A stretch of DNA of 64,000 nucleotides, taken from assembly GCF_046105845.1 (NCBI RefSeq), contig NZ_CP151004.1, one strand, 5' to 3'. Under the pieces are notes generated by a model. That model had not been told where the DNA came from. It saw only the letters and a list, made by a program, of their open reading frames with translations, and searched no databases. Numbering within the stretch: the stretch's first letter is position 1; each line of letters starts with the position of its first letter. This stretch comes from Escherichia coli. GTDB taxonomy: Bacteria > Pseudomonadota > Gammaproteobacteria > Enterobacterales > Enterobacteriaceae. A program made the translations under genes and the position numbers. Positions 3,498 through 6,654 of the stretch are shown piece by piece.

Positions 3498-4970
3498 ATG
3501 TCCCGAATGGCAGAACAGCAGCTTTATATACATGGTGGTTATACCTCCGCCACCAGCGGTCGCACCTTCGAGACCATTAACCCGGCCAACGGTAACGTGC
3601 TGGCGACCGTGCAGGCCGCCGGACGTGAGGATGTCGATCGCGCCGTGAAGAGTGCCCAACAGGGGCAAAAAATCTGGGCAGCGATGACCGCTATGGAACG
3701 CTCGCGTATTCTGCGTCGGGCCGTTGATATTCTGCGTGAACGCAATGACGAACTCGCAAAACTGGAAACCCTCGACACCGGAAAAGCGTATTCGGAAACA
3801 TCAACCGTCGATATCGTTACCGGCGCGGACGTGCTGGAGTACTACGCCGGGCTGATCCCGTCGCTGGAAGGCAGCCAGATCCCATTGCGTGAGACGTCAT
3901 TTGTTTATACCCGCCGCGAACCGCTGGGCGTAGTGGCAGGGATTGGCGCATGGAACTACCCGATCCAGATTGCCTTGTGGAAATCCGCACCGGCGCTGGC
4001 GGCAGGCAACGCGATGATTTTCAAACCGAGCGAAGTCACCCCGCTTACCGCGTTAAAGCTGGCCGAAATTTACAGCGAAGCGGGCCTGCCGGACGGCGTA
4101 TTTAACGTGCTGCCGGGCGTGGGCGCGGAGACCGGGCAGTATCTGACCGAGCATCCGGGCATTGCCAAAGTGTCATTTACCGGCGGTGTCGCCAGCGGCA
4201 AAAAAGTGATGGCTAACTCGGCGGCCTCTTCCCTGAAAGAAGTGACCATGGAGCTGGGCGGTAAATCACCGCTGATCGTTTTCGACGATGCAGACCTCGA
4301 TCTCGCCGCTGATATCGCCATGATGGCGAACTTCTTCAGCTCCGGTCAGGTGTGTACCAATGGCACCCGCGTGTTTATTCCGGCGAAATGCAAAGCCGCA
4401 TTTGAACAAAAGATTCTGGCGCGCGTTGAGCGCATTCGCGCGGGCGACGTTTTCGATCCGCAAACTAACTTCGGCCCGCTGGTCAGCTTCCCGCATCGCG
4501 ATAACGTGCTGCGCTATATCGCCAAAGGCAAAGAGGAAGGCGCGCGCGTACTGTGCGGCGGCGATGTACTGAAAGGCGATGGCTTCGATAACGGCGCATG
4601 GGTTGCACCGACCGTGTTCACCGATTGCCGCGACGAAATGACCATCGTGCGTGAAGAGATCTTCGGTCCGGTGATGTCGCTTCTCACTTATGAATCTGAG
4701 GACGAAGTGATTCGCCGCGCCAATGATACCGACTACGGCCTGGCGGCGGGCATCGTGACGGCGGACCTGAACCGCGCGCATCGCGTCATTCATCAGCTGG
4801 AAGCGGGTATTTGCTGGATCAACACCTGGGGCGAATCCCCTGCAGAGATGCCCGTTGGCGGCTACAAACACTCCGGTATTGGTCGCGAGAACGGCGTGAT
4901 GACGCTCCAGAGTTACACCCAGGTGAAGTCCATCCAGGTTGAGATGGCTAAATTCCAGTCCATATTCTGA
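3498..4970 (+). CDS. betB: Betaine aldehyde dehydrogenase BetB
   Basis: 490-aa aldehyde dehydrogenase family protein (catalytic Cys/Glu region present), directly downstream of betI. Confidence 0.93.
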
Positions 4971-4983
4971 CCAGGAGGTTTAT

Positions 4984-6654
4984 TTGCAATTTGACTACAT
5001 CATTATTGGTGCCGGCTCAGCCGGCAACGTTCTCGCTACCCGTCTGACTGAAGATCCGAACACAACCGTGCTGCTGCTTGAAGCAGGCGGCCCGGACTAT
5101 CGCTTTGACTTTCGCACCCAGATGCCCGCCGCGCTGGCGTTCCCGTTACAGGGTAAACGCTATAACTGGGCCTATGAGACGGAACCGGAACCGTTTATGA
5201 ACAACCGTCGCATGGAGTGCGGACGCGGTAAAGGTCTGGGCGGATCGTCACTGATCAACGGCATGTGCTACATCCGTGGCAATGCGCTGGATCTCGATAA
5301 CTGGGCGCAAGAACCCGGTCTGGAGAACTGGAGCTACCTCGACTGCCTGCCCTACTACCGCAAGGCCGAGACGCGCGATGTGGGCGAGAACGACTACCAC
5401 GGCGGCGACGGCCCGGTGAGCGTCACCACCTCCAAACCCGGCGTCAATCCGCTGTTTGAAGCGATGATTGAAGCGGGCGTGCAGGCGGGCTACCCGCGCA
5501 CGGACGATCTCAACGGTTATCAGCAGGAAGGTTTTGGCCCGATGGATCGCACCGTCACGCCGCAGGGCCGTCGCGCCAGCACCGCGCGTGGCTATCTCGA
5601 TCAGGCCAAATCGCGCCCTAACCTGACCATTCGTACTCACGCCATGACCGATCACATCATTTTTGACGGCAAACGCGCGGTGGGCGTCGAGTGGCTGGAA
5701 GGCGACAGCACCATTCCGACCCGCGCGGCGGCGAATAAAGAAGTGCTGTTATGTGCAGGCGCGATTGCTTCACCGCAGATCCTGCAACGCTCCGGCGTCG
5801 GCAACGCTGGACTGCTGGCGGAGTTTGATATTCCGCTGGTGCATGAATTACCTGGCGTCGGCGAAAATCTTCAGGATCACCTGGAGATGTATCTGCAATA
5901 TGAGTGCAAAGAACCGGTTTCCCTCTACCCTGCCCTGCAGTGGTGGAATCAGCCGAAAATCGGTGCGGAGTGGCTGTTTGGCGGCACCGGCGTTGGTGCC
6001 AGCAACCACTTTGAAGCTGGCGGATTTATTCGCAGCCGTGAGGAATTTACGTGGCCGAATATTCAGTACCATTTCCTGCCAGTGGCGATTAACTATAACG
6101 GCTCGAACGCAGTGAAAGAGCACGGCTTCCAGTGCCACGTCGGATCGATGCGCTCGCCAAGCCGTGGGCATGTGCGGATTAAATCCCGCGACCCGCACCA
6201 GCATCCGGGAATTCTGTTTAACTACATGTCGCACGAGCAGGACTGGCAGGAGTTCCGCGACGCAATTCGCATCACCCGCGAGATCATGCATCAACCCGCG
6301 CTGGATCAATACCGTGGCCGCGAAATCAGCCCCGGCGCGGAATGTCAGACGGATGAGCAGCTCGATGAGTTCGTGCGTAACCACGCCGAAACCGCGTTTC
6401 ATCCGTGCGGTACCTGCAAAATGGGTTATGACGAGATGGCAGTGGTTGACGCCGAAGGCCGCGTACACGGGCTGGAAGGCCTGCGCGTGGTGGATGCGTC
6501 AATTATGCCGCAAATTATCACCGGCAATTTGAACGCTACGACTATTATGATTGGCGAGAAAATGGCGGATATGATTCGCGGGAAGGATGCGTTGCCGAGG
6601 AGCACGGCGGGATATTATGTGGCAAATGGGATGCCGGTGAGAGCGAAAAAATGA
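4984..6654 (+). CDS. betA: Choline dehydrogenase BetA (GMC oxidoreductase), TTG start
   Basis: GMC family FAD-binding motif [15 protein letters not shown] at N-terminus; AGGAGG 5 nt upstream of TTG at 4984; 556 aa matches recalled BetA. Confidence 0.9.

What the first reader, a model, noticed from the sequence alone, without database searches (positions are those of the whole stretch)
4939..4990. betA most likely initiates at TTG 4984, not the upstream in-frame ATG
The longest ORF starts at ATG 4939 inside betB, but a strong AGGAGG lies 5 nt upstream of in-frame TTG 4984, and the product from there begins with the GMC FAD-binding fold ([14 protein letters not shown]). This indicates a non-ATG start that ORF callers may misplace.
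Basis: partly seen in the sequence, partly recalled or inferred. Interest (0 to 1): 0.2.

Follow-up and report, generated by a model that had tools for sequence, protein, structure and literature searches.

The report
betA starts at an annotated TTG

Summary
The window is E. coli chromosome: the betT / betI-betB-betA locus, 99.4% identical over 24 kb to NZ_CP062824.

Confirmed:
- AGGAGG lies at 4973-4978.
- A 5-nt spacer (TTTAT) follows, then an in-frame TTG at 4984-4986.
- The product from there begins [14 protein letters not shown].

Wrong: 4939-4941 is TTG, not ATG. The only nearby ATG (4944) is in the betB frame.

Evidence for the 4984 start:
- RefSeq annotates betA at this TTG in all 9 other E. 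coli genomes inspected.
- The exact 556-aa product is in a 15-billion-protein collection. The 571-aa extended form is not.
- PDB homologues and the NCBIfam betA models begin aligning at extended-ORF residues 16-19. Nothing aligns to the 15-residue extension.
- Across 80 orthologous loci, 33 keep TTG with [A/G]GGAGG upstream. Ten of those have no upstream in-frame start at all.
- 19 loci have ATG at the identical codon, most with in-frame stops 3-27 nt upstream. 28 (Pseudomonas, Moraxella) have ATG one or two codons upstream.

The start call is correct but ordinary and already known. Gene callers do not appear to misplace it. I found no direct N-terminal peptide or initiation-profiling data for BetA.

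The parts
3498..4970 (+). betB (betaine-aldehyde dehydrogenase) CDS. Its stop is TGA at 4968-4970, 13 nt before the betA start.
   Evidence: Translation. RefSeq annotation of the 99.4% identical genome is 3498..4970. The stop is TAA in the 9 other E. coli sampled.
4921..4926 (+). AGGTGA, a weak Shine-Dalgarno-like sequence 12 nt upstream of TTG 4939. Positions 4924-4926 (TGA) are also the in-frame stop that closes the betA frame upstream.
   Evidence: Anti-SD duplex -8.4 kcal/mol. The 12-nt gap is longer than the usual 5-9 nt. The in-frame codon list shows the stop.
4939..4941 (+). It is the start of the longest ORF, lies inside betB codons Val-Glu, and is most likely not used.
   Evidence: It is absent or replaced by a stop in 10 of the 33 orthologous loci that have the TTG start.
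4944..4946 (+). ATG in the betB frame (Met of ...[10 protein letters not shown]).
4973..4978 (+). Shine-Dalgarno sequence AGGAGG for betA, starting 2 nt after the betB stop.
   Evidence: Anti-SD duplex -11.5 kcal/mol. Conserved as [A/G]GGAGG in all 33 TTG-start orthologues.
4984..4986 (+). TTG initiation codon of betA.
   Evidence: RefSeq start in 9 E. coli genomes. ATG sits at the homologous codon in 19 other species. PDB and NCBIfam homology starts here.
4984..6654 (+). betA CDS (choline dehydrogenase, 556 aa plus stop).
   Evidence: TIGR01810 betA equivalog scores 1023.6 bits against a cut-off of 732.1. The exact protein is in the public collection, named choline dehydrogenase.
5008..5025 (+). 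GAGSAG, the GxGxxG dinucleotide-binding motif of the N-terminal FAD-binding fold. It begins 8 codons after the TTG.
   Evidence: Translation. It aligns to the same motif in 9lq0, 8b7s and 3ljp.

Best explanation
BetA (choline dehydrogenase, 556 aa) is translated from the UUG codon at 4984-4986. The 30S subunit is positioned by a perfect AGGAGG Shine-Dalgarno sequence (4973-4978) 5 nt upstream. This sequence starts 2 nt after the betB stop codon (4968-4970), in a 13-nt betB-betA gap within the betIBA operon. Initiator tRNA reads UUG as formyl-Met, so the product starts [14 protein letters not shown], with the first beta-strand and GxGxxG loop of the GMC FAD-binding fold almost at the N-terminus. 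The 45-nt in-frame stretch upstream (4939-4983) is open only because it overlaps the conserved 3' end of betB in another frame. It is not coding for BetA. Shown: sequence anatomy, annotation, orthologue start positions and the point where homology begins. Inferred: that a strong SD compensates for a weak start codon, and that betA translation is coupled to termination of betB.
For: 1. Sequence: AGGAGG, 5 nt, TTG, then the GxGxxG fold.
2. Anti-SD pairing is -11.5 kcal/mol at optimal spacing for 4984. For 4939 it is -8.4 kcal/mol, from an AGGTGA 12 nt away.
3. RefSeq/PGAP annotates betA at this TTG in all 9 other E. coli genomes inspected, including a K-12-like strain and the 99.4% neighbour, where the CDS is 4984..6654. 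The junction is identical in all of them apart from the betB stop codon.
4. Of 80 orthologous loci, 33 have TTG at the homologous codon with [A/G]GGAGG upstream. In 7 of these (6 Klebsiella/Raoultella plus Enterobacter sp. JUb54) a 1-nt longer spacer shifts the frame and puts a stop at -45. In 3 (Citrobacter amalonaticus and C. sedlakii) the upstream TTG is gone. So 10 loci have no alternative upstream start.
5. 19 loci (Trabulsiella, Pluralibacter, Cedecea, Pantoea, Kosakonia, Tatumella and others) have ATG at the identical codon; 16 of them have no upstream in-frame start, and in 15 of those the in-frame stop lies 3-27 nt upstream. 28 loci (Pseudomonas, Moraxella) have ATG 1-2 codons upstream.
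6. All solved-structure homologues start aligning at residues 16-18 of the extended ORF. TIGR01810 profile position 1 aligns to residue 19, and NF002550 position 5 to residue 17.
7. The exact 556-aa protein is in the 15-billion-protein collection. The 571-aa form is not.
Against: I found no direct experimental evidence. The held literature and supplements yielded no N-terminal peptide and no initiation-site profiling peak for betA. The upstream TTG 4939 does exist in E. coli and in 23 of the 33 TTG-start orthologues, and it has a weak SD-like AGGTGA, so a minor longer isoform cannot be formally excluded. Annotation agreement partly reflects one pipeline (PGAP) and propagation by homology, so it is not independent evidence for each genome.
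Confidence: 0.93

Rival explanations
1. BetA initiates at the upstream TTG 4939 (the longest ORF), giving a 571-aa protein with the N-terminal extension [16 protein letters not shown].
For: It is the first canonical start after the in-frame stop at 4924-4926. An AGGTGA with -8.4 kcal/mol anti-SD pairing lies upstream. The TTG is present in E. coli and in 23 of the 33 TTG-start orthologues.
Against: - The SD-like element is 12 nt from the codon, and the site sits inside actively translated betB.
- The conservation is explained by the overlap with the betB codons for Val-Glu-Met.
- In 10 related species the codon is lost or replaced by an in-frame stop while betA is intact.
- In 19 species an ATG occupies the 4984-equivalent codon, most with stops immediately upstream.
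- No homologue or family model aligns to the extension.
- The 571-aa protein is absent from the public collection.
Confidence: 0.02
2. Dual initiation: most BetA starts at TTG 4984, but a minor fraction starts at TTG 4939, giving two isoforms.
For: Both codons are in frame with no stop between them, and each has some anti-SD complementarity upstream. Genome-wide start-site profiling in E. coli reports many genes with two closely spaced starts (PMC4909307).
Against: The long form cannot be made in Klebsiella, Raoultella, Citrobacter amalonaticus or C. sedlakii, so no conserved function is expected. SD spacing is poor. TTG is a weak codon that needs a good SD. No data show the long form.
Confidence: 0.04
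3. Initiation occurs downstream of 4984, at a near-cognate ATC/ATT (4999-5007) or at GTG 5068.
For: These codons are in frame.
Against: - ATC and ATT are very poor starts.
- They lie within the first beta-strand (DYIIIGAG) of the FAD-binding fold, which is conserved in all 80 orthologues. GTG 5068 would delete the GxGxxG motif.
- The SD would be 20 nt or more away.
- Orthologues with ATG at or just before the 4984 codon argue for the full N-terminus.
Confidence: 0.01

Closest known systems
E. coli K-12 betA (b0311; RefSeq WP_001159094.1; UniProt P17444 from my own knowledge), choline dehydrogenase of the betIBA operon
   Same: Same gene. The betB-betA junction is identical in sequence, including AGGAGG, the TTTAT spacer and the TTG start. 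The protein is 556 aa, and the operon context is the same, with divergent betT.
   Different: The window's betB stop is TGA, not TAA, and BetA has a few amino-acid substitutions. The start site itself does not differ.
BetA orthologues with ATG starts (Trabulsiella, Pluralibacter, Cedecea, Pantoea, Kosakonia, Pseudomonas, Moraxella)
   Same: The N-terminus is at the same position or within 2 codons (M[Q/E][13 protein letters not shown] or MSQEFDY...), with an SD upstream and the same FAD-binding motif.
   Different: They use ATG. The intergenic regions differ, and in-frame stops lie just upstream. The TTG is confined to Escherichia, Pseudocitrobacter, Enterobacter, Lelliottia, Leclercia, Huaxiibacter, Klebsiella, Raoultella and Citrobacter.
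Annotated UUG-initiated E. coli genes in general (about 81 UUG starts annotated in K-12 according to PMC4909307)
   Same: A minority start codon paired with a Shine-Dalgarno sequence at canonical spacing. The start is recognised by standard annotation.
   Different: Nothing distinctive. Unlike well-studied cases, betA's UUG has no published regulatory role that I could find.

Membership tests
BetA choline dehydrogenase (NCBIfam TIGR01810 equivalog; GMC oxidoreductase family) | Scores above the curated cut-off of the equivalog model over its full length. | tested here: met
   1023.6 bits against a cut-off of 732.1. Profile positions 1-532 of 532 align to residues 19-552 of the extended ORF.
BetA choline dehydrogenase (NCBIfam TIGR01810 equivalog; GMC oxidoreductase family) | N-terminal GxGxxG FAD-binding beta-alpha-beta motif. 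| tested here: met
   GAGSAG at 5008-5025. It aligns to the same motif in choline dehydrogenase 9lq0 and choline oxidase 3ljp.
BetA choline dehydrogenase (NCBIfam TIGR01810 equivalog; GMC oxidoreductase family) | Operon context betI-betB-betA with divergent betT. | tested here: met
   ORFs. RefSeq annotation of the collinear 99.4% genome.
BetA choline dehydrogenase (NCBIfam TIGR01810 equivalog; GMC oxidoreductase family) | Choline to betaine-aldehyde oxidation activity. | not testable with these tools
   Requires an enzyme assay. Inferred from near-identity to E. coli BetA.
SD-led non-AUG (UUG) translation start | In-frame UUG preceded by anti-SD-complementary sequence at about 5-9 nt. | tested here: met
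   AGGAGG at 4973-4978, 5-nt spacer, -11.5 kcal/mol duplex.
SD-led non-AUG (UUG) translation start | The start coincides with orthologues' N-termini, and no alternative start is available in some orthologues. | tested here: met
   19 species have ATG at the same codon. 10 TTG species have no upstream in-frame start.
SD-led non-AUG (UUG) translation start | Direct evidence of initiation (N-terminal peptide, or an initiation-complex profiling peak). | not testable with these tools
   Nothing for betA/b0311 in the held supplements of PMC4909307 or PMC13245402. No supplements are held for 10.1101/520783.
Translationally coupled adjacent genes in an operon | Short gap, with the downstream SD at or next to the upstream stop codon. 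| tested here: met
   The betB stop is at 4968-4970, the SD starts at 4973 and the TTG is at 4984, a 13-nt gap.
Translationally coupled adjacent genes in an operon | Downstream translation depends on upstream translation, for example through an RBS-masking structure opened by the upstream ribosome. | tested here: inconclusive
   The predicted fold pairs the SD with 4930-4937, but its energy is not distinguishable from shuffles (z = -1.12; 25 of 200 shuffles fold as well). Functional dependence needs an experiment.

The most novel reading that the evidence does not exclude
The weak UUG start, invariant across 33 species in about nine enterobacterial genera while the SD-to-start spacer varies (TTTAT, TTTTT, TCATTT, TCATGT, TTTCA, TCTCA), might be kept by selection. 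It could hold BetA synthesis below BetB, or make BetA output depend on translational coupling or IF3 discrimination. Either would be a tuning device for a membrane-associated flavoenzyme whose product, betaine aldehyde, is toxic. A minor 571-aa isoform from TTG 4939 in E. coli is also not formally excluded.
Probability: 0.12. Interest if true: 0.3.

Novelty: already known. Interest (0 to 1): 0.05.

Why it matters
It matters very little. It confirms that standard annotation of betA is right and that a naive longest-ORF rule overshoots by 15 codons here. The same rule overshoots by 6 codons at betI and 1 codon at betB in the same operon. The only point of mild biological interest is that a weak TTG start paired with a perfect SD is conserved across several enterobacterial genera, while sister genera use ATG at the same codon. 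That could reflect tuning of BetA:BetB stoichiometry, but selection on start codons of this kind is already documented in general.

Tried and rejected
- I looked for direct experimental support for the BetA N-terminus in the held literature. A betA / TTG / start-codon search gave nothing relevant, and a bet-operon initiation-codon search gave no sequence-level statement.
- TetRP start-site paper PMC4909307: betA and b0311 are absent from the main text and from 3 supplements.
- TRAINSPOTTER N-terminomics paper PMC13245402: no b0311, P17444 or peptide match in the held supplements, which were cut when stored.
- Ribo-RET preprint: no supplements are held.
- I tested whether an RNA structure masks the betA SD. 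The predicted hairpin is not better than shuffled controls, so I do not rely on it.
- I tested whether the SD + spacer + start motif is statistically unusual in the window. It is not: 2 observed against 0.95 expected.
- I had recalled that K-12 betA starts with ATG and expected the window to carry an ATG-to-TTG variant. The alignment rejected this: K-12-like and all other sampled E. coli have TTG.

Full report
**What is in the sequence**

Reading window 4800-5160 and listing ORFs shows the 3' end of betB (…[10 protein letters not shown], stop TGA 4968-4970). AGGAGG follows at 4973-4978, then the spacer TTTAT, then TTG at 4984-4986. From there an ORF runs to 6654 whose product begins (M)[20 protein letters not shown].

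The detail used as the contrast is wrong. The longest ORF does begin at 4939, but the codon there is TTG (…CCAGG TTG AGA TGG CTA…), as the ORF listing also reports. The nearby ATG (4944-4946) is the Met codon of betB and is out of frame with betA. An in-frame TGA at 4924-4926 closes the frame, so the only canonical in-frame candidates before the FAD-binding motif are TTG 4939 and TTG 4984.

**Where the window comes from, and what is already annotated**

The 601-nt junction matches 5,179 of 5,426 complete E. coli genomes at 93-98% identity. The first 24 kb is 99.4% identical to E. coli O169:H41 NZ_CP062824, and the window stays collinear with that genome to about 55.7 kb.

RefSeq annotation of that genome, in window coordinates, gives:

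| Gene | Coordinates |
|---|---|
| betT | 735..2768 (-) |
| betI | 2897..3484 |
| betB | 3498..4970 |
| betA | 4984..6654 |

Eight further E. coli genomes spread across the identity range were also inspected, including a K-12-like strain. All annotate betA from the same TTG, and all have an identical junction sequence apart from the betB stop, which is TAA in all of them and TGA in the window. The proposed start is therefore the standard one.

**Do gene callers misplace it?**

An exact-sequence look-up finds the window's 556-aa BetA in the 15-billion-protein collection. It sits in a 7,792-member cluster whose 15 listed members are all 556 or 562 aa and are named choline dehydrogenase. The 571-aa extended form is not in the collection. 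The 556/562 difference is C-terminal: one extra A in an A-run just before the stop. Only a naive longest-ORF rule picks 4939. The same rule also overshoots at betI (2879 against 2897) and at betB (GTG 3495 against ATG 3498).

**Ribosome-binding site**

Pairing to the 16S 3' end is -11.5 kcal/mol for the CAGGAGGU stretch (4972-4979, containing AGGAGG) that ends 4-5 nt before TTG 4984. TTG 4939 has only an AGGTGA (4921-4926, -8.4 kcal/mol) 12 nt upstream, which is beyond normal spacing. The motif AGGAGG-N5-[A/G/T]TG is not in itself improbable in 64 kb: 2 found against 0.95 expected. The argument therefore rests on position and conservation.

**Homology**

Using the extended ORF as query, all solved GMC-family structures start aligning at residues 16-18, that is, at the TTG-encoded residue or just after it. 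These include choline dehydrogenase 9lq0, 8b7s and choline oxidase 3ljp. Nothing aligns to residues 1-15. The NCBIfam betA equivalog TIGR01810 matches with profile position 1 at residue 19 (1023.6 bits against a cut-off of 732.1). NF002550 position 5 aligns to residue 17.

**Comparative test**

One scan of species-representative genomes returned 80 orthologous loci. I located the codon homologous to 4984 in each.

| Group | Loci | Start arrangement |
|---|---|---|
| Pseudocitrobacter, Enterobacter, Lelliottia, Leclercia, Huaxiibacter, Klebsiella, Raoultella, Citrobacter | 33 | TTG at the homologous codon, [A/G]GGAGG 5-6 nt upstream |
| Trabulsiella, Pluralibacter, Cedecea, Pantoea, Kosakonia, Tatumella, Rosenbergiella, some Pseudomonas | 19 | ATG at exactly that codon, most with in-frame stops 3-27 nt upstream |
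| Most Pseudomonas, Moraxella | 28 | ATG one or two codons upstream (MSQEFDY…) |

Within the 33 TTG loci:
- Seven (6 Klebsiella/Raoultella plus Enterobacter sp. JUb54) have one extra nucleotide between the SD and the TTG. This shifts the upstream frame and places a stop at -45.
- Three (Citrobacter amalonaticus, C. sedlakii) have lost the upstream TTG, through GTT GAG changing to CTC GAG in betB.
- So 10 species have no possible upstream start.

The N-terminus is therefore fixed at this position across the family. The open 45-nt stretch in E. coli is a by-product of overlapping the conserved end of betB.

**Mechanism**

Shown: an SD-led UUG start 13 nt after the betB stop, in the betIBA operon.

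Inferred from general knowledge of bacterial initiation: UUG is decoded by fMet-tRNA less efficiently than AUG, and the perfect SD at optimal spacing compensates. The closeness to the betB stop also favours coupling or re-initiation by terminating ribosomes. A predicted hairpin pairs the SD with 4930-4937, which would fit coupling. Its energy is not better than shuffled controls (z = -1.12), so I do not rely on it.

**What is missing**

I found no direct experimental mapping of the BetA N-terminus in the held literature or supplements. A minor long isoform from TTG 4939 cannot be formally excluded in E. coli, but it has no comparative support.

**Verdict**

The start call is right and the 'ATG' detail is wrong. 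The result is already in RefSeq, and from my own knowledge also in UniProt P17444 (556 aa, MQFDY…). It is ordinary, so interest is low. The only mildly interesting residue is the conservation of a weak TTG across several genera, alongside ATG at the same codon in sister genera.

Noticed in passing
window 4968-4970: The betB stop codon is TGA in this window but TAA in all 9 other E. coli genomes sampled, including the 99.4% identical neighbour. The same A-to-G change turns Asn into Asp in the non-coding betA-frame extension.
   Followed up: partly
window 6643-6654; L001 4444-4473: E. coli BetA comes in 556-aa and 562-aa forms. The difference is one extra A in the A-run just before the stop (GCGAAAAAATGA against GCGAAAAAAATGAGTCGTGATTTGAACTGA), which adds the residues MSRDLN. 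The window has the 556-aa form.
   Followed up: partly
window 2879-2899 and 3495-3500: The longest-ORF rule also overshoots at the two other genes of the operon. The betI ORF starts at ATG 2879 but RefSeq starts at ATG 2897, where anti-SD pairing is better (-7.3 against -1.5 kcal/mol). The betB ORF starts at GTG 3495 but RefSeq starts at the adjacent ATG 3498.
   Followed up: partly
L024-L029, L031 around 1955-2003: Klebsiella, Raoultella and Enterobacter sp. JUb54 carry one extra nucleotide between the SD and the TTG (6-nt spacer). This changes the frame relationship between betB and betA and puts an in-frame stop 45 nt upstream of the TTG.
   Followed up: yes
L005 (Pseudocitrobacter vendiensis) 2001-3659: Its BetA is 97% identical to the E. 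coli protein, closer than the Citrobacter orthologues (87-89%), and its junction DNA is nearly identical. This suggests recent horizontal exchange of the bet locus. The bet junction is also absent from 247 of 5,426 complete E. coli genomes.
   Followed up: no
window ~55717-64000: Collinearity with the closest genome (NZ_CP062824) ends near 55.7 kb. In that genome this is the position of an integrase remnant and a CP4-like island (CbtA/YeeU toxin-antitoxin, RadC, antirestriction genes). The window's own content beyond this point was not examined.
   Followed up: no
window 7734-13000: Between betA and ykgH the window carries the ipbA (hbiF/fimX) invertase, hyxR, hyxA and autotransporter island. 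The K-12-like strain lacks it: there ykgH follows betA directly.
   Followed up: no
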